Of a stretch of DNA of 59,916 bases, positions 9,151-59,803 are shown piece after piece. The stretch's first letter is position 1, and each line of letters opens with the position of its first letter. The DNA is from a virus. The position numbers were made by a program, and so were the translations under genes. The stretch is taken from UHGV virus genome UHGV-0126570; one strand, given 5' to 3'. The notes under the pieces were generated by a model. The model made no database searches, had not been told where the DNA came from, and saw only the letters and a program-made list of their open reading frames with translations.

Positions 9151-9263
9151 CCGTTACATGAAGTTAAATTTCTAACATAGTGTATTTATATACACTGTTG
9201 ATCCTGTTCGATGTGATCGAGTAGGATCGCGGTCACTGCTCCGGTAGCGACTGCCAAAAAAGC

Positions 9264-9350: not shown

Positions 9351-10313
9351 GTGAGTATTTTAAATTCAGTTTCAGTAACTTTCAACACTTCTGAGTATAA
9401 AAACAACACTGAATACCACAAAAAAATCAAAGGTCATCAGTTGAGTTTTTTTGCTCGCCACTGTGGTTTTCTTTCCCCTTCACATAGCGCCATTATTGCC
9501 GAGTTCGCCAACCTGGCAGGGGCTACCGATGAATACATGATCCGTCGTTCATATGCTGATATGTCCGAGATTACAGGACGCAGTATTTCTACTGTGCGCC
9601 GGGCATTTGCTGAAGCGACGAAGTGCGGAATGCTTGTTAAGCAACATCAGGTAGCGAATAACAATGCTCAGGTGTGTAACGTATACCGGTTTACAACACA
9701 ATTTCTCCACTTCATTCATGTAGCAATGGAGATAGGGGGTAAGCAGGGCATCAAATTTGCGAACGCCACAAAACTGGTTAAGCAGTTGATTTCAAAGGTT
9801 CGGTATTTTTTTGAAACTGGGAACCCCCTGTTCAAATTGAACAAGTCCCCCCATGTTCAAAATGAACAGCCAATAGAAAATAAGAGTCACTCTATAGCCA
9901 AAAGAAGAGAAAGATCATGCGCGGTTCAGCCAAAGGCTTCACCAGCAGATAGTTCCCAAGCGGATAATGGATTACTGGATAAAAAACCAGCAATCAGGGA
10001 AGAACATACCGACCACTGCCTGGCGGCGGCAAAAGCGAGAGCTGCAAAGCGTCGTTCAGACGAGGGGCACGCAAAACGGCAGGCTCTGTATCGTACCGCT
10101 GAAAAGCTGGCAAAAAAATTTGCATGGATACGTAGTGCCGCTACCGCAGTGAATAAGCCTAAACAATCCAGTGCCCTGGATTTCTCAATGGATTATTCTG
10201 GCTCCCAGGGGTGTGCAACCATTGGTGAAGCCTTTGACCTGATGAAACAGCGTGGCTATCGGTCTGAATTTGACCGGGAGGATTGGTCAATCCCTGCGGG
10301 ATTTAGGGGATGA
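9351..10313 (+). CDS. HTH DNA-binding protein, possible replication initiator or regulator
   Basis: GTG start; helix-turn-helix-like segment MSEITGRSISTVRRAFAEATKCGML; basic C-terminal half. Preceded by a terminator and inverted repeats (GTATAAATC..GATTTATAC). Confidence 0.3.
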   Translation: MSILNSVSVTFNTSEYKNNTEYHKKIKGHQLSFFARHCGFLSPSHSAIIAEFANLAGATDEYMIRRSYADMSEITGRSISTVRRAFAEATKCGMLVKQHQVANNNAQVCNVYRFTTQFLHFIHVAMEIGGKQGIKFANATKLVKQLISKVRYFFETGNPLFKLNKSPHVQNEQPIENKSHSIAKRRERSCAVQPKASPADSSQADNGLLDKKPAIREEHTDHCLAAAKARAAKRRSDEGHAKRQALYRTAEKLAKKFAWIRSAATAVNKPKQSSALDFSMDYSGSQGCATIGEAFDLMKQRGYRSEFDREDWSIPAGFRG

Positions 10314-26990: not shown

Positions 26991-27020
26991 TGTTAGATGA
27001 ATGGAATTAATTTTCTAATA
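26991..27020. promoter_or_regulatory. Palindromic operator-like element TGTTAGA-N16-TCTAATA
   Basis: Inverted heptamers with 16-bp spacing, upstream of the 27099/pacA operon; same architecture as the sites at 42979, 46407 and 57293. Confidence 0.5.
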
Positions 27021-27098
27021 TAACCAACTTTTTGCCAGTCTATACAGAAATAACATTCTCATTATCATCCCCTCGGTCATTTCCTGCCCGGGGGATTA

Positions 27099-27491
27099 AT
27101 GGAGCATATCAGCAGCGCAGAAATTGCGGATATCATGATTAGGGCTGACTGCTATCTGACAGTCACCGAAATTACCACTCTAGCTAAAGAAAAATATCCT
27201 CACCTTCATGTTTCACGCGTAAGTGTAACCAACATCATTCGGCATTTTGTGCGGTCAAGCCGAGCTATTTGTGAGCTTGATGATCGTGTTTACCCACGGA
27301 AATACTGGTTGCATGGCCTGAACGGATATCAGTTCAAGGTGCGCGGGCGCACCCCTGAATACGGCAGTTTGCTGGTTAAAAACTGTAGCCGGAAGTCTGC
27401 AGAACTGGCGCGACAAGAGCAGCGCAAGCTGGTGGACATGGCTAATAAGCTGTGGAATGCCGCAGTTAAAAAGCGTGGTGTTGCTTTATGA
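27099..27491 (+). CDS. Hypothetical protein (130 aa)
   Basis: First gene after the operator-like palindrome; stop/start overlap with the pacA-like gene. Confidence 0.45.
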   Translation: MEHISSAEIADIMIRADCYLTVTEITTLAKEKYPHLHVSRVSVTNIIRHFVRSSRAICELDDRVYPRKYWLHGLNGYQFKVRGRTPEYGSLLVKNCSRKSAELARQEQRKLVDMANKLWNAAVKKRGVAL

Positions 27492-28852
27492 GCCTTGTTA
27501 ATTGGGAAGAGCACCGCGCCAAATTTATAGCGTTGCGTGAAGAAAAAGGGATCACCGTAAAGGAATACTGCGAGCAACACGACCTTAGCTTCAATACCGC
27601 CAGAAAGCATCTCAATATGAAAAAAAATGAGGTGCGGTCGCAGGTGAAGACTACAAAAAAAAGCACCAAATCACCTGAAAAAAAACGGGCAGGAAGAGCA
27701 AAAAAAAGGCCAGAAGAGGGTACAGAAACAACAAAATTTACAGAAACTGACAATTCACAGAGCGGAAGTTCTTTCCGGAGCATGCCGAGAAAGAAAACTT
27801 CGGATCATAAAAATAACGACAATAATAACAATGAGATAAAAGAATCTGTCAGGAGATCATTGCGCGAAAAAATGGCGAAAATGATCCCCACCGAAGATAA
27901 ATGCGCCTCAAAAATCGAGGGATCTTCAGCAATGATCCCTGGCGGTGCTGTGCAGCGTGCCACGTTGCCCACTACGAGTGTGGCTCGCGACATGATGAAG
28001 AACGGCGCAGAAGAGCACCTGCGGTTAGCAATTCAAATGGCGCAAGAACGCGCACTTCAGTACCAAAGCATTGTTGATCAGGAGGCCGAACGCCTACAGG
28101 CGGAGATAGACGCCCTGGGTGATGAACAGCCAGAAGGAATGCACCCTGGGCAGCGACTTCTCGGTCTAATCAGTGACGCGGCCTACTACATGAACGATTT
28201 TATCAGTAGGTTGGCAGCGATATATCAGTCCGAACAAAAGCTGCGACAGGGTGATGAAAAACTTCGTCAGGGTGCTCGCCAGCAAGCATTCAGAGAGGCC
28301 GAGGCCAGAGAAAAACTCGAATTAGCACGCCTACAGGCCGAACAGCGTGGCAAAGAGATTGAATATCGCATTGGCGCTGACGCACGCGCAGCCAGAGTTA
28401 TCGCCGCCGCTATACGTATGCGTGAGCGCGAGGAGCTGGACGATATCGGTGTTGCTGAATACATCGAGCGTCAGGGTGTCAGTGTCCCGGCTATCCTCGC
28501 GGCGCGCGCGGCGAAAGCTATCACTCTTCTCGAACCTCCAGTTTCTGACATCAATGATGTTGATGATGAACAGCTGGACAAAGAAGCGAAGGAGTTTGCA
28601 TCGCTTCAGGCTAACCATCCGCAATGGCTGGCAGAGCGCCGGGCGGATGTGGCAACCATTGTTGAAGATCTGGGGTGCGGAGATTACGACCACAATGGCG
28701 AGCGTAAGGCTGGGGAATTCGAGGCCAACGATGAAGAGTTGGACATTGACCCTTCGGCAACGGCTGAAATTTACGGTGATTATGATGCATCAGATGCAGG
28801 GTATGACGCCGGAGATGATGATATTGCGATAGAACCGCCGGAGGATGACTAA
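27488..28852 (+). CDS. pacA: PacA-like terminase small subunit (pac-recognition protein)
   Basis: Immediately upstream of and overlapping (TAATG) the large-terminase gene; Lys-rich N-terminal region; contains a cluster of GATC hexamers. Assignment is by synteny with P1. Confidence 0.5.
   Translation: MSLVNWEEHRAKFIALREEKGITVKEYCEQHDLSFNTARKHLNMKKNEVRSQVKTTKKSTKSPEKKRAGRAKKRPEEGTETTKFTETDNSQSGSSFRSMPRKKTSDHKNNDNNNNEIKESVRRSLREKMAKMIPTEDKCASKIEGSSAMIPGGAVQRATLPTTSVARDMMKNGAEEHLRLAIQMAQERALQYQSIVDQEAERLQAEIDALGDEQPEGMHPGQRLLGLISDAAYYMNDFISRLAAIYQSEQKLRQGDEKLRQGARQQAFREAEAREKLELARLQAEQRGKEIEYRIGADARAARVIAAAIRMREREELDDIGVAEYIERQGVSVPAILAARAAKAITLLEPPVSDINDVDDEQLDKEAKEFASLQANHPQWLAERRADVATIVEDLGCGDYDHNGERKAGEFEANDEELDIDPSATAEIYGDYDASDAGYDAGDDDIAIEPPEDD
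27802..27938. other. Candidate pac site (cluster of Dam-methylatable hexamers)
   Basis: Five GATC within 135 bp inside the pacA 5' region: GGATCA 27802, AGATCA 27854, TGATCC 27882, GGATCT 27920, TGATCC 27933. P1 pac consists of clustered TGATCA/G hexamers inside pacA. Confidence 0.3.
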
Positions 28853-30360
28853 TGGCTGGTGGGCGCAAGATTAAATGCGTCACCAGCGATCCACGCTGGC
28901 GCGATATGGTAATCAAATACCGCTACAACTTTACCCAGGCTGTTGTTGATATATTCGGGATGTTTCCCTCCCACCAGCAGCAGGAGATTATCCAGTCCGT
29001 ACAGCAAAAAGGGAGCAGAACCACTGTTACCTCTGGTCACGGTACAGGGAAATCGTCGCTAACGGCTATGTTGTTGCTGATTTATTTGATTCTGTTCCCC
29101 GATGCCCGTGTCATCATTGTTGCTAACAAAATAGGTCAGGTTAAGACAGGTGTATTCAAATACGTTAAACAGTATTGGGCGAATGCCGTTAAGCGTCATG
29201 GGTGGTTACAGACCTATTTTGTCCTGTCTGACACCATGTTTTATGAACGCTCTCGAAAGGGGATCTGGGAAGTTCTCTGCAAAGGCTATCGACTCGGTAA
29301 CGAAGAAGCTCTGGCGGGGGAGCACGCGGCACATTTGCTTCTAATTCTGGATGAAGCATCAGGTATATCTGATAAAGCGATCGGCGTAATGACTGGCGCT
29401 CTGACTGAAGAAGATAACCGAATGTTGATGCTATCCCAGCCAACAAGGCCAAGTGGTTATTTCTACGATTCGCACCATTCTCAAGCTAAAACCCCAGACA
29501 ACCCGAAAGGGATCTGGACAGCAATTGTTCTTAACTCAGAAGAATCACCGTTCGTCACACCACAATTCATCAGGCAGAAACTCCTGGAATATGGCGGGCG
29601 CGATTCTATTGAGTACATGGCCAAGGTTCTTGGTCAGTTTCCTCGGGAGATTAACGGCTATTTGCTTGGTCGTGATGAATGCGATCGCGCTGCGCGGCGC
29701 AAGGTGTTGTTGGAGAAAAACTGGGGATGGGTGGCTACTGCTGACGTTGGTAACGGGCGAGACAAGTCAGTTCTTAATATCTGTAAAGTGTCTGGTCACC
29801 GGGAAAAGCGGCGTGTTGTTAACTTTAAGGTAATGGAAATGCCAGGGACTATGGACCCGCTGGCTTTTGCTGACTTTATATACAACGAATGCACGCCGGA
29901 TAAATACCCGAATATTACAATCGCGGTTGACGCAGACGGTTTTGGTTCAGATACCTGTGCGCAGCTGGTGCGCCGTGGGGCTAATCCGGTACGGATTCGG
30001 TGGGGGAAACCCATGTTTTCGAACAAAGACAAGGAGCGTTTTGTTAACCAGCGTGCCTACGCAAATATTATGGCTCGTGATGCCATAAAGTCAGGTCGTA
30101 TGCGAATAGACAGCGACCCTAAAACGGCAGAGCAAGCGTCAAAAATCCCCTTTTTACTTAATGAAGAAGGGAAGATGGCGATGATGCGCAAGGAGCACAT
30201 GCGGCAAAAGCTGAACATCAAATCACCTGACCGATGGGATACCTACTGCTTTACAATGCTGGTGGACTATGTTCCTGCTAATGAAGATATCGGCGCTGAA
30301 ATGGCTACCTTCCGCGATCAGGTTCTTGCAGATGTAGAAATGCCAGATCTGGATATTTGA
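28852..30360 (+). CDS. pacB: PacB-like terminase large subunit
   Basis: 502 aa; Walker A TSGHGTGKS, Walker B LLLILDEAS, C-terminal acidic nuclease-type motifs (ATADVGNGRD, AVDADGFG). Confidence 0.85.
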   Translation: MAGGRKIKCVTSDPRWRDMVIKYRYNFTQAVVDIFGMFPSHQQQEIIQSVQQKGSRTTVTSGHGTGKSSLTAMLLLIYLILFPDARVIIVANKIGQVKTGVFKYVKQYWANAVKRHGWLQTYFVLSDTMFYERSRKGIWEVLCKGYRLGNEEALAGEHAAHLLLILDEASGISDKAIGVMTGALTEEDNRMLMLSQPTRPSGYFYDSHHSQAKTPDNPKGIWTAIVLNSEESPFVTPQFIRQKLLEYGGRDSIEYMAKVLGQFPREINGYLLGRDECDRAARRKVLLEKNWGWVATADVGNGRDKSVLNICKVSGHREKRRVVNFKVMEMPGTMDPLAFADFIYNECTPDKYPNITIAVDADGFGSDTCAQLVRRGANPVRIRWGKPMFSNKDKERFVNQRAYANIMARDAIKSGRMRIDSDPKTAEQASKIPFLLNEEGKMAMMRKEHMRQKLNIKSPDRWDTYCFTMLVDYVPANEDIGAEMATFRDQVLADVEMPDLDI

Positions 30361-30431
30361 CATCCTCCACGCCCTGAAGGACGGGGTTTTACGGCGCACC
30401 GGATAAAGCCCCGGCAATGCGGGGCTTGTGA

Positions 30432-31669: not shown

Positions 31670-31703
31670 CTAACTTTAGATAATTGGCATTATTTAAAGT
31701 TAG
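31670..31703. other. lox-like recombination site (13-bp inverted arms, 8-bp spacer)
   Basis: CTAACTTTAGATA-ATTGGCAT-TATTTAAAGTTAG; arms are 12/13 inverted matches and resemble loxP arms (ATAACTTCGTATA); 152 bp upstream of the Cre-like gene. Confidence 0.6.
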
Positions 31704-57335: not shown

Positions 57336-58241
57336 ATGAGATCAGTCGCTTTCAAAAACATCTTCATCTATCGTCTTTCACGTGAAGTTAACTGGAGTGC
57401 CGCAGAAGTATCCGATGCTCTTAGCAAATTCGTGTTTACTCCTTGCGGTTCTCAGGACACAGCTAAAGTCGGTTGGACACCTGTTCTTGGTGACAACCTC
57501 ACCCATGAATACCAGGGTTTTCTGCTAATACAGCATAAGCGAGAAGAAAAAATTCTCCCCTCGCAGGTGCTCAAGGAAGAGTTGCAGAAAAAAGTCCTGA
57601 AACTCGAAGAAGAGCAAGCCCGCAAGCTGAAGAAAACGGAAAGAGACAGTCTTAAAGATGAAGTCCTGCATTCACTTTTGCCTCGCGCGTTCACGAGAAA
57701 ATCACTCGCCAAAATCCTGATCGACCGCAGCAACCATCTGGTATTCGTTGAGGCAAGCAGCGCCAAAAAGGCAGAGGACCAGCTGGCTTTATTGCGAAAG
57801 TCGCTCGGCAGCCTGCCTGTCATTCCATTCACACCACGCGAACCGCTGGAAATTACAATGACCGAGTGGTTTAAAAGCGGCTTCCCTGCCGGATTTACAG
57901 CAGGTGAAGACGCCACATTAAAGGGTCTGCTCGATAATGGTGGTGCCGTTCGCTGCAACAAAGTTGATCTACAGTCCGACGAGATTATGTCTCACATTGA
58001 GGCGGGGAAAGTAGCTACGACCGTTGCAATTAACTGGATGGACCGTGCGTCGTTCAGAGTCAACGATGATATGAGTATCAAAGCCCTGACATTCTGTGAT
58101 GATCTCTATGACCAGAACGACGATATCGACCGGGAGGATGTAGCACAACGATTTGATGCTGATTTCGTGCTCTTTACGGGCGAATTATCTGCACTGTTTA
58201 ACGCGCTGGTGGAGGCCATTGGCGGTGAAGCAGAACGATAA
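57336..58241 (+). CDS. rdgC: Recombination-associated protein RdgC
   Basis: Alignable along its length with E. coli RdgC ([54 protein letters not shown]). Confidence 0.85.
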
Positions 58242-58257
58242 TAACCGACCGCTTGTT

Positions 58258-58905
58258 GTGAGTCTTTGTGATTTTACGGGGGCAATGGTTGCCCCCTGGC
58301 TGGAATACGGTGTCGATGCCGCTATCGTCGATCCACAGCACTTATCGACCAGTGACGAGCGGATGCAATCAGGTGCCGTTCTGACGCGTATTAGTGCGAT
58401 CATCGATAGCGATGAAGTATACGCTTTTCTCCGTAAGAATTTGCAGCGCATCGTGTTTCTGGCCGGGTTCCCACCGTGTACTGACCTGGCTGTTTCCGGC
58501 GCGCGCTGGTTTTCGGACAAGGCTAATAAAGATCCGGTTTTCCAGTTCAAAGCAATGCAGGTTGTCTGGCAGTGTTATGACATTGCAAAGATGATCGGTT
58601 GTCCGTACATGATTGAAAATCCGGTCAGCAAAATATCGACATTCTGGCGTAAGCCAGATCACATCTTTCACCCTTACTTCTTCACTGCATATTGTCAGGA
58701 AGATAACTACACCAAAAAAACATGCCTCTGGAGCGGCCAGGGCTTTGTCATGCCTGATGCCCTAATGGACGAATCATTAGGCAAGCCAGATAACAGAATC
58801 CATGCCGCGCCACCAGGGCCTGACAGGGCTAATTTCCGAAGTGCTACTCCACATGGATTCGCAAAGGCAGTTTTCGAAGCGAATAAGGGGGTGCTCTATG
58901 AGTAA
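58258..58905 (+). CDS. Minimal C5-cytosine methyltransferase-like protein (motifs I, IV, VI only)
   Basis: LCDFTGAM (motif I-like), GFPPCTDLAVSG (PC motif IV), IENP (motif VI-like) with canonical spacing; no recognisable target-recognition domain. Start uncertain (GTG 58258, ATG 58285, or ATG 58153 inside rdgC). Confidence 0.4.
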   Translation: MSLCDFTGAMVAPWLEYGVDAAIVDPQHLSTSDERMQSGAVLTRISAIIDSDEVYAFLRKNLQRIVFLAGFPPCTDLAVSGARWFSDKANKDPVFQFKAMQVVWQCYDIAKMIGCPYMIENPVSKISTFWRKPDHIFHPYFFTAYCQEDNYTKKTCLWSGQGFVMPDALMDESLGKPDNRIHAAPPGPDRANFRSATPHGFAKAVFEANKGVLYE

Positions 58906-59803
58906 ATCTATAGCAAGCATAGCCATAGAAAAACAGGATACGATGGCTGAAATTAGCTATATGCGCACCATTCGGACTCCGGATGAATATGAGCGTCCGA
59001 TATTCAAATGGGTAGGTGGTAAATTCTCAGAATTGCCTACAGTGCTTGAGCATCTACCACACGGTAAGCGGTTAATAGAACCATTCGTTGGTGGCGGTTC
59101 CGTATTTACGAATGCAGGATTTCGCCACAACCTGCTTAATGATATTAACGGTGACCTGATTAACTTCTATCAGACATTGCAGCGAGAAGGACATTCGCTC
59201 GTCACGCTGTCATATAGTTTTTTCAAAAATTACAACAACGCTGACGCTTACCTCGAAGTGCGTGAGGCATTTAACAGAGGAAAATATGACCAGCTACATC
59301 ATGCTGCCGCATTTTTGTACCTTAATCGTCACTGTTTTAATGGCGTAACGCGGTACAACCAAAATGGCGAGTTCAACGTGGGGTATGGCAAATACAAAGC
59401 GCCCTACTTCCCACATGCAGAGATGGAGGCATTTTTGGCTGATGACGTACTCAAAAACACTTCCTTTGTATCAGGAGACTTTGCTAGCGTCATCGAGGCG
59501 GCTGGTGAAGACGATGTGATTTTTTGTGATCCGCCGTATGAACCGCTTCCGGATACAGAGGGATTTACCAGCTATTCAGGAAATAGCTTCCGTTTCGATG
59601 AACAAAAACGGCTTGTATCACTGTTGGTGGATGCCCACCAGCGCGGCGCTAAGGTAGTGATAACAAATAGTGGTGCTCCAAACATCCGTGAGCTATATGA
59701 AGGAAACGGGTTTAAAGTACATCATATGGCAGCCAGACGGTCGGTTTCCTGCAAGGCGTCAACACGTGTAGTTGCTAACGATATAATTGCAATAATGAAG
59801 TAA
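58898..59803 (+). CDS. dam: Dam-family N6-adenine DNA methyltransferase
   Basis: FKWVGGK, EPFVGGGSVF, FLYLNR, CDPPYEPL in the order found in E. coli Dam; start overlaps the upstream stop; GGGGG RBS. Confidence 0.85.
   Translation: MSKSIASIAIEKQDTMAEISYMRTIRTPDEYERPIFKWVGGKFSELPTVLEHLPHGKRLIEPFVGGGSVFTNAGFRHNLLNDINGDLINFYQTLQREGHSLVTLSYSFFKNYNNADAYLEVREAFNRGKYDQLHHAAAFLYLNRHCFNGVTRYNQNGEFNVGYGKYKAPYFPHAEMEAFLADDVLKNTSFVSGDFASVIEAAGEDDVIFCDPPYEPLPDTEGFTSYSGNSFRFDEQKRLVSLLVDAHQRGAKVVITNSGAPNIRELYEGNGFKVHHMAARRSVSCKASTRVVANDIIAIMK

What the first reader, a model, noticed from the sequence alone, without database searches (positions are those of the whole stretch)
27802..27938. GATC hexamer cluster inside pacA as a candidate methylation-controlled pac site
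Five GATC-containing hexamers (TGATCC-type in both orientations) fall within 135 bp of the pacA 5' region, and the window encodes a Dam homolog (58898-59803). In P1, pac cleavage is controlled by Dam methylation of clustered hexamers inside pacA. Just upstream (27619-27707) are four A7-8 runs that encode a Lys-rich segment.
Basis: partly seen in the sequence, partly recalled or inferred. Interest (0 to 1): 0.4.

Follow-up and report, generated by a model that had tools for sequence, protein, structure and literature searches.

The report
Candidate packaging site of D6-like phage-plasmid
Five Dam-methylation (GATC) motifs inside the small-terminase gene of this D6-like plasmid-prophage are kept by selection acting on the DNA itself, and they are most likely the phage's DNA-packaging start site, the counterpart of the well-studied phage P1 pac site; this is an expected relative, not a new kind of element.

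Summary
GATC occurs at 27803, 27855, 27883, 27921 and 27934, in pacA (27488-28852) of a phage D6-like plasmid prophage. The window also encodes a Dam-family methylase and has four A8 runs just upstream. Counted alone, the cluster is not significant: P=0.22 window-wide, and 0.002 if only the first 600 nt of pacA are considered. Comparison is what makes the case. All five GATCs sit at identical gene offsets in every D6-like pacA, down to 70% nucleotide identity, inside the most variable part of the gene. Wobble bases inside GATC never change, whereas 85% of comparable codons vary. Two sites keep GATC through Arg/Gly replacements. The repeated element is a 9-11-mer, AATGATCCC, arranged in inverted pairs. 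Across 16 PacA lineages, including P1, GATC is about 3.8-fold enriched in pacA nt 140-540, while its flanks differ by lineage. Gene order (lpa-pacA-pacB-c1-rox-dre) and the pac-to-rox distance (~3.8 kb) mirror P1. The best reading is a P1-type, probably Dam-gated, pac site with a different repeat and layout. Cleavage position, methylation dependence and IHF involvement are untested. It is a new member of a known kind, of modest interest.

The parts
27488..28852 (+). pacA (small terminase / pacase A subunit, 454 aa). It contains the candidate pac site.
   Evidence: ORF. 93% aa identity to D6 PacA. 20% identity, E=6e-9, colinear with P1 PacA. Annotated 'DNA pacase A subunit' in identical plasmids.
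27801..27939 (.). Candidate pac site: five GATC-containing elements spanning 139 bp.
   Evidence: Offsets 316/368/396/434/447 are identical in all D6-like pacA. DNA-level conservation.
27801..27809 (-). Element 1, CGGATCATA (rc TATGATCCG; 2 mismatches to AATGATCCC).
   Evidence: GAT (Asp106) wobble is invariant while the flanking His wobble varies.
27826..27838 (+). TAACAATGAGATA, a conserved AT-rich core in the largest inter-element gap. It matches the annotated P1 IHF site at 10 of 13 positions. Weak lead only.
   Evidence: Partly invariant columns. It does not meet the IHF consensus at 1 mismatch or fewer.
27853..27861 (-). Element 2, GAGATCATT (rc AATGATCTC; 1 mismatch). It forms an inverted pair with element 3.
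   Evidence: (I2). Arg/Gly123 changes but xGA is kept, and Ser124 TCA is invariant.
27880..27888 (+). Element 3, AATGATCCC (exact).
   Evidence: (D3). A 10-nt block is invariant in all 8 aligned sequences, including the E. hormaechei type. Ile133 is always ATC.
27919..27927 (-). Element 4, GGGATCTTC (2 mismatches). It is a perfect AGGGATCATT in E. marmotae.
   Evidence: Gly/Arg145 changes but the GA of GATC is kept.
27931..27939 (+). Element 5, AATGATCCC (exact).
   Evidence: Ile150 is always ATC.
27620..27707 (+). Four A8 runs encoding the Lys-rich PacA linker. They occupy the position where related lineages carry their left-hand GATC arm. Belonging to pac is uncertain.
28852..30360 (+). pacB (large terminase / pacase B subunit, 502 aa).
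   Evidence: 56% aa identity to P1 PacB over 488 aa. Pfam Terminase_6N.
31671..31702 (-). rox-like recombination site, ~3.8 kb downstream of the cluster. It is the counterpart of P1 lox, which lies ~4.0 kb from pac.
   Evidence: 1 mismatch to the D6 rox sequence, with 0 expected by chance. P1 coordinates.
58898..59803 (+). Dam-family N6-adenine DNA methyltransferase (phage-encoded; presumed GATC-specific).

Best explanation
The cluster is the packaging initiation (pac) site of a D6-like phage-plasmid, orthologous to the P1 pac site. The proposed mechanism is as follows. Late in infection PacA, through its N-terminal helix-turn-helix domain, binds the five GATC-centred elements (consensus AATGATCCC, arranged as inverted pairs) embedded in its own gene. 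With PacB it cuts the concatemer within or next to the ~140-bp site. Headful packaging then proceeds towards pacB, c1 and rox, so that rox falls in the terminal redundancy and Dre can circularise the injected DNA. Because every element keeps an intact GATC, cleavage is probably gated by adenine methylation (host Dam plus the phage Dam homolog), as in P1. Shown here: the elements exist, are under DNA-level selection, and lie where P1's mapped pac lies; the GATC core is retained across the terminase family. Inferred: binding by PacA, the cut position, the direction of packaging, methylation dependence, and any IHF/HU role.
For: (1) Identity of the element. The pacA region is 100% identical to E. 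coli plasmids and 92% to phage D6. The order lpa-pacA-pacB-c1-rox matches P1.
(2) Position. In P1 the hexamers lie at pacA nt 195-229 and 325-348 and the cuts at nt 276-285. Here the GATCs lie at nt 316-450.
(3) Conservation. The same five offsets occur in all 25 distinct D6-like pacA sequences, apart from two single T>C losses. In a diverse subset all 20 GATC nucleotides are invariant, against 45% of the other nucleotides in nt 250-520. P is about 1e-4 that five random 4-mers would all be invariant.
(4) Selection on DNA rather than protein. 156 of 183 conserved degenerate codons vary synonymously, but none of the 3 whose wobble base lies in GATC does. Ser124 TCA is invariant. Two sites keep GATC through Arg/Gly replacements that use the rare codons AGA and GGA.
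(5) Repeat structure. AATGATCCC occurs as direct and inverted repeats, and E. marmotae has four perfect 10-11-mers.
(6) Family trait. Across 16 lineages GATC reaches 17.1 per kb in pacA nt 140-540 against 4.5 per kb in the rest of each locus. It ranks in the top 4 of 136 tetramers in 12 of 16 lineages, with lineage-specific flanks.
(7) Co-variation. TGATCC-type elements co-occur with an NTARKHL recognition helix, and TGATCA-type elements with NTARR[Y/E]L.
(8) A Dam homolog is present.
(9) P1 pac biology is as summarised in PMC10028697.
Against: There is no direct evidence of cleavage or of virion DNA ends. On its own the cluster is not statistically unusual in the window (P=0.22). The layout differs from P1: five elements with gaps of at most 48 bp, rather than 4+3 hexamers around a ~90-bp core. 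No hexamer matches TGATC[A/G] on the P1 pattern. No IHF consensus with 1 mismatch or fewer lies in 27600-28050. Two natural variants lack one GATC each, so single sites are dispensable. The P1 cut-site octamer TTGTCAGT occurs only outside the cluster, inverted, at 27746-27753, and is not conserved in the family. The D6 GenBank records annotate no pac. The D6 genome paper could not be read, so it may already discuss or contradict this.
Confidence: 0.8

Rival explanations
1. The GATCs are conserved because PacA needs the short peptide motifs they encode (S-D-H, G-S, M-I-P twice). On this view the DNA motif is a by-product.
For: The motifs are in the same reading frame in all relatives. MIP occurs twice and DH once. 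A single-sequence AlphaFold model places residues 110-132 in a helix of moderate confidence.
Against: Wobble positions inside GATC are invariant (GAT, ATC, ATC, TCA), while 85% of other conserved degenerate codons vary. Adjacent Pro and His wobble bases vary. Residues 123 and 145 switch between Arg and Gly yet keep GATC. Other lineages encode different peptides but still cluster GATC in the same region.
Confidence: 0.07
2. The GATC cluster is a Dam/SeqA-dependent regulatory element, for example timing or attenuating pacA-pacB expression or sequestering newly replicated DNA. On this view it is not the cleavage and recognition site, and the true pac lies elsewhere.
For: Clustered GATCs are classical SeqA/Dam targets (own knowledge). 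A weak minus-strand promoter-like site has its -10 element overlapping element 1. A conserved island at 27731-27754, upstream of the cluster, could be the real core.
Against: Promoter- and terminator-like hits are no more frequent than in shuffled sequence, and no Rfam family matches. In P1 the homologous GATC repeats are the pacase recognition elements themselves. The element flanks co-vary with the PacA HTH.
Confidence: 0.1
3. The cluster is a chance concentration of GATC with no function.
For: A uniform-placement null gives P=0.22 for such a cluster somewhere in the window.
Against: The five offsets are identical in sequences only 70-76% identical, inside the least conserved part of the gene. 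The same enrichment appears independently in 16 lineages.
Confidence: 0.02

Closest known systems
Bacteriophage P1 pac site. It is a 161-162 bp site inside pacA with seven TGATCA/G hexamers (HEX4 and HEX3), an IHF site, a central staggered cleavage and Dam-regulated cleavage (NC_005856 annotation; PMC10028697; Sternberg & Coulby 1987-1990 and Skorupski 1992/1994 from own knowledge).
   Same: It lies in the 5' third of the homologous pacA gene, upstream of a 56%-identical pacB. It has multiple GATC-centred repeats and a total span of about 140-160 bp. A site-specific recombination site lies ~4 kb downstream in the same orientation. The phage encodes a Dam-type methylase.
   Different: The repeat is an asymmetric 9-11-mer, AATGATCCC, in both orientations, rather than the (near-)palindromic TGATCA/G. 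There are five copies instead of seven. There are not two arms around a ~90-bp spacer; the largest gap is 48 bp. There is no convincing IHF consensus. PacA is only 20% identical. No experimental data exist.
pac regions of other P1-group phage-plasmids surveyed here: E. hormaechei-type, Pantoea-type, Xenorhabdus-type and IMG/VR lineages.
   Same: All of them concentrate GATC in pacA nt ~140-540. The E. hormaechei type uses the same AATGATCCC/GGGATCATT element.
   Different: Most are clearly bipartite. Examples are Pantoea, with 6-7 TGATCA at 12-bp spacing plus 2 more about 130 bp away, and E. hormaechei, with 3 plus 5 separated by ~200 bp. In D6-like elements the position of the left arm is taken by A8 runs.
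pac sites embedded in small-terminase genes of other headful phages (P22 gene 3, Sf6, SPP1 pacL/pacC/pacR; own knowledge).
   Same: The recognition site lies inside the gene of the protein that recognises it, and packaging is by the headful mechanism.
   Different: Those sites are not built from Dam sites and are not known to be methylation-gated. Their terminases are unrelated in sequence.

Membership tests
P1-type pac site | Located inside the 5' part of pacA, immediately upstream of pacB, in a P1-group genome. | tested here: met
   The GATCs lie at pacA nt 316-450. P1's hexamers lie at nt 195-348. PacB is 56% identical. Synteny is lpa-pacA-pacB-c1-rox.
P1-type pac site | Multiple repeated elements, each containing a Dam site (GATC). 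| tested here: met
   Five elements are present. All are conserved, with DNA-level constraint.
P1-type pac site | Hexamer consensus TGATC(A/G). | tested here: not met
   The hexamers are TGATCC (three), TGATCT and AGATCC. The clade consensus is AATGATCCC.
P1-type pac site | Two arms (4+3 hexamers) flanking a ~90-bp core that holds the cleavage site. | tested here: not met
   The GATC start-to-start spacings are 52, 28, 38 and 13 bp, and the largest GATC-free gap is 48 bp. No GATC-less degenerate copies occur upstream. Sister lineages are bipartite.
P1-type pac site | An IHF binding site next to the cut. | tested here: inconclusive
   No WATCAANNNNTTR match with 1 mismatch or fewer occurs in 27600-28050. 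TAACAATGAGATA (27826-38) matches the P1 IHF site at 10 of 13 positions.
P1-type pac site | Cleaved by PacA+PacB; virion DNA ends map to the site. | not testable with these tools
   Both genes are present. One IMG/VR contig starts right after element 1, but that is anecdotal. The metagenome scan was uninformative.
P1-type pac site | Cleavage depends on adenine methylation of the GATCs. | not testable with these tools
   Support is indirect only. The GATC core is invariant while flanks diverge across lineages. A Dam homolog is encoded.
Dam-family GATC methyltransferase (58898-59803) | D12-class N6-adenine MTase with full-length similarity to GATC-specific enzymes. | tested here: met
   PF02086 at 5.5e-57. 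TIGR00571 scores 251 bits against a cut-off of 115. E. coli Dam 2g1p at 1e-58 and DpnM at 9e-45. It scores below the cut-off of the E. coli Dam equivalog model NF008152 (241 against 441 bits). Specificity itself was not tested.

The most novel reading that the evidence does not exclude
In the whole PacA/PacB terminase family of enterobacterial phage-plasmids, the conserved feature of pac is the Dam site itself rather than a particular hexamer. The flanks have diverged together with the PacA recognition helix (RKH with TGATCC; RR[Y/E] with TGATCA). In the D6 clade the site has been rebuilt into a one-sided array of inverted 9-11-mer pairs, with the ancestral left arm replaced by A8 tracts. If so, methylation sensing would be an ancestral, obligatory checkpoint of packaging in this family. 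D6-like elements would then offer a minimal, differently wired version for dissecting it.
Probability: 0.3. Interest if true: 0.5.

Novelty: new member of a known kind. Interest (0 to 1): 0.3.

Why it matters
D6-like phage-plasmids are common in E. coli, Salmonella and Shigella. This region occurs in 81 of 5,426 complete E. coli genomes, always on plasmids, and such elements can carry resistance genes. Knowing their pac site would allow D6-based phagemids and transduction tools that are orthogonal to P1. It would help predict which host or plasmid DNA they mis-package. It would also give a second, differently built example for studying how Dam methylation gates terminase cleavage. The family-wide retention of GATC with changing flanks is a testable comparative handle on terminase specificity.

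Tried and rejected
1. Significance within the window alone was not convincing: P=0.22.
2. An IHF consensus scan found nothing with 1 mismatch or fewer in the region.
3. The P1 cut-site octamer TTGTCAGT occurs inverted at 27746-27753, in a conserved island. It is absent from P7-like and most other lineages, so I treat it as probable coincidence.
4. That conserved island (27731-27754) is in the same reading frame in all relatives, with peptide xFTxTDx. Protein constraint therefore cannot be excluded for it.
5. Promoter, terminator and Rfam scans found nothing above chance.
6. Searching for contigs that end at pac gave little. One IMG/VR contig begins right after element 1. The viral and metagenome exact-pattern scans gave too few hits, and loci that are stored chunks rather than contig ends.
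7. The genome-contig scan with a single PacB sequence returned only 2 loci. The alignment-based viral scan was the productive one.
8. Several papers are not held, so I cannot say whether a D6 pac site has already been described in print: the D6 genome paper (Gilcrease & Casjens 2018), Sauer & McDermott 2004 and Lobocka 2004. The papers I could read on D6-like plasmids do not mention one.
9. The single-sequence AlphaFold model of PacA is of low confidence (pLDDT 62) and gives only rough domain limits.

Full report
**What the window is.** The region around the finding encodes four genes. They are a late-promoter activator Lpa (27099-27491; Pfam BPP1_LPA, 6e-55), a 454-aa ORF (27488-28852), a 502-aa terminase large subunit (28852-30360) and a C1-like repressor on the opposite strand. 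The stretch 27000-30400 is 92% identical to phage D6, where these genes are annotated lpa, pacA, pacB and c1. pacA is 100% identical to several ~90-kb E. coli plasmids. PacB is 56% identical to P1 PacB. PacA is only 20% identical to P1 PacA, but colinear with it over its whole length (E=6e-9). A rox-like site with one mismatch to the D6 rox sequence lies at 31671-31702. The window is therefore part of a D6-like, P1-group phage-plasmid. This pac region is present in 81 of 5,426 complete E. coli genomes, always on a plasmid.

**Checking the observation.** GATC occurs at 27803, 27855, 27883, 27921 and 27934. The hexamers are GGATCA, AGATCA, TGATCC, GGATCT and TGATCC, so three are exactly TGATCC on one strand or the other. 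This is the densest GATC cluster in the window. GATC as a whole is not enriched (213 observed, 233 expected). With uniform placement, a cluster of at least 5 in 135 bp somewhere in the window has P=0.22. If the first 600 nt of pacA are named in advance, P=0.002. The four A runs are each exactly A8 and make up 4 of only 7 A8/T8 runs in the window. The ORF at 58898-59803 is a Dam-family methylase. It matches TIGR00571 at 251 bits and E. coli Dam (2g1p) at 1e-58 over its full length, and is ~69% nt identical to part of P1 dmt. Its specificity for GATC is inferred, not tested.

**Comparison with the mapped P1 site.** In the annotated P1 record, pacA starts at 90529, the IHF site is at pacA nt 256-268 and the primary cuts are at nt 276-285. 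TGATCA/G hexamers lie at nt 195-229 (four) and nt 325-348 (three). PMC10028697 summarises the biology. The 161-bp pac lies within pacA and has seven TGATCA/G repeats carrying Dam sites. PacA and PacB bind, IHF and HU bend the DNA, and methylation promotes cleavage. Synonymous mutation of the hexamers lowers P1 titre about 9-fold. The window's cluster lies at pacA nt 316-450, in the same region of the gene. The distance from the cluster to rox (~3.8 kb) resembles the P1 pac-to-lox distance (~4.0 kb), and the orientation is the same.

**Conservation within the D6 clade.** I collected D6-like pacA genes from plasmids and from IMG/VR contigs anchored on PacB. These gave 25 distinct sequences, down to 70% nucleotide identity.
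- All carry GATC at the same five offsets (316, 368, 396, 434, 447). The exceptions are two variants that each lost one site by a T>C change.
- GATCs further downstream in pacA differ between sequences.
- The cluster sits in the least conserved part of the gene: per-bin invariant fractions over nt 181-495 are 0.24-0.47, against 0.44-0.84 over nt 496-1080.
- In a diverse nine-sequence subset all 20 GATC nucleotides are invariant, against 45% of the other nucleotides in nt 250-520. Only 16% of 4-mers in that region are fully invariant, so five being invariant by chance has P of about 1e-4.

**DNA constraint or protein constraint.** In an 11-sequence codon alignment, 156 of 183 conserved degenerate codons show synonymous variation. 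The three conserved codons whose wobble base lies inside a GATC (Asp106 GAT, Ile133 ATC, Ile150 ATC) show none. Ser124 is always TCA. Residues 123 and 145 alternate between Arg and Gly using AGA and GGA, which keeps GATC intact. The immediately flanking Pro and His wobble bases vary. This pattern points to selection on the DNA sequence rather than on the peptide.

**Anatomy.** The repeated unit is longer than a hexamer, with consensus AATGATCCC(T). The window has two exact plus-strand copies (27880-88, 27931-39). It has three minus-strand copies with 1-2 mismatches (27801-09, 27853-61, 27919-27). A remote copy lies at 27548-56, in the HTH-coding part of the gene. Elements 2 and 3 form a 10-nt inverted repeat with an 18-nt spacer. 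Elements 4 and 5 are an inverted pair separated by 3 nt. In E. marmotae, elements 2 to 5 are perfect 10-11-mers. No GATC-less degenerate copies lie nearby. The largest gap, between elements 1 and 2, contains a partly conserved AT-rich core. Its 13-mer TAACAATGAGATA matches the P1 IHF site at 10 of 13 positions, but it misses the IHF consensus at two positions. I regard this only as a lead.

**Family survey.** I compared sixteen PacA lineages, with PacB 57-100% identical. They include P1, a P7-like type, and Pantoea, Xenorhabdus and E. hormaechei types.
- GATC is concentrated in pacA nt 140-540: 17.1 per kb against 4.5 per kb in the rest of each ~6.5-kb locus.
- By enrichment, GATC ranks in the top 4 of 136 tetramers in 12 of the 16 lineages.
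- Most lineages are visibly bipartite. For example, the Pantoea type has six or seven TGATCA at 12-bp spacing plus two more about 130 bp downstream. The E. hormaechei type has three plus five separated by ~200 bp.
- The flanks are lineage-specific: TGATCA, CGATCA, AATGATCCC, or a GATCCGATC doublet.
- TGATCC-type elements co-occur with an NTARKHL (or NTLRKHF) helix in the PacA N-terminal domain. TGATCA types co-occur with NTARR[Y/E]L. This fits recognition by the PacA HTH, but it rests on only about two independent lineages.
- In D6-like genes, the place where relatives have their left arm is occupied by the A8 runs. Only the first A8 run is conserved beyond close D6 relatives.

**Rivals.** Chance is excluded by the conservation. 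Conservation of peptide motifs is contradicted by the codon analysis. A purely regulatory Dam/SeqA element cannot be excluded, but nothing supports it specifically. Promoter- and terminator-like sites are at the level of shuffled sequence, and no RNA family matches.

**Limits.**
- The cut site, the packaging direction, methylation dependence and IHF involvement are all inferred by analogy with P1.
- The layout fails two defining P1 features: the TGATC[A/G] consensus and the 4+3 arms around a ~90-bp core.
- A single-sequence AlphaFold model (mean pLDDT 62) shows an N-terminal helical domain (residues 6-58). It shows low-confidence segments at 59-109 and 133-162, and a helix at 110-132. The site therefore encodes partly structured and partly unstructured linker.
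- The D6 GenBank records annotate no pac feature.
- The D6 genome paper and the pac-c1 comparison paper were not available. Prior description in print cannot be ruled out.

**Verdict.** This is very probably the pac site of D6-like phage-plasmids: a new member of the P1-type, Dam-site-based pac family, with a distinct repeat and arrangement. A specialist would expect this result. Interest is modest, and comes mainly from the comparative picture and the practical use for D6-based vectors.

Noticed in passing
window 27620-27707: There are four exact A8 runs within 88 bp, which is 4 of the window's 7 A8/T8 runs. They lie in the Lys-rich PacA linker, with start-to-start spacing of 35, 23 and 22 bp. 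They occupy the position where related pacA genes carry their left GATC arm. Only the first run is conserved outside close D6 relatives. They could be slippage-prone or could bend DNA.
   Followed up: partly
window 27731-27754: A conserved island, CAAAATTTACAGAAACTGACAA, lies inside the hypervariable PacA linker. It is retained even in the E. hormaechei type, in the same frame (peptide xFTxTDx). It contains an inverted copy of the P1 cut-site octamer TTGTCAGT, which is not shared by other lineages.
   Followed up: partly
window 31671-31702: A rox-like 32-bp site has one mismatch to the phage D6 rox sequence (recalled from memory). A changed base in a recombinase target could matter for Dre specificity.
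   Followed up: no
window 9200-9228: Three GATCs within 29 bp lie in the intergenic region upstream of the gene that D6 annotates as lytic replication protein (9351-10313). This may be a Dam-sensitive control or origin-proximal element.
   Followed up: partly
window 58153-58905: An ORF overlaps the start of the dam homolog. D6 annotates it as a putative DNA-cytosine methylase, and it has FPPC and ENP motifs. It has no Pfam or NCBIfam hit. P1 Dmt is reported as a single protein with both activities (own knowledge, not checked here).
   Followed up: partly
window 30355-30400: A 46-bp stretch between pacB and c1 is 98% identical to a segment of many Stx-converting phages (107 of the 110 phage records matched). 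It is GC-rich and looks capable of forming hairpins (not tested); it may be a shared terminator or a mobile mini-element.
   Followed up: no
L055 (IMGVR_UViG_2537562191_000021) position 1; corresponds to window 27808: A 23.6-kb contig of a D6-like element begins exactly after the GGATC of element 1 and runs towards pacB. This is the expected side of a pac cut, but it is a single case and may be an assembly accident.
   Followed up: partly
L064 (IMGVR_UViG_3300011830_000001), pacA nt 157-170 and 362-375: A distant PacA lineage has two double-GATC 9-mers, GATCCGATC and GATCGGATC, in inverted orientation about 200 bp apart. This would be a minimal, symmetric version of the family's pac layout.
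   Followed up: no
L003 (NZ_MK356557.1, Salmonella pSa1423-90k) pacA: This pacA has 18 in-frame stops caused by many 1-2-nt indels, mostly in homopolymers. This looks like sequencing error rather than a real pseudogene. The five GATCs are still recognisable.
   Followed up: no
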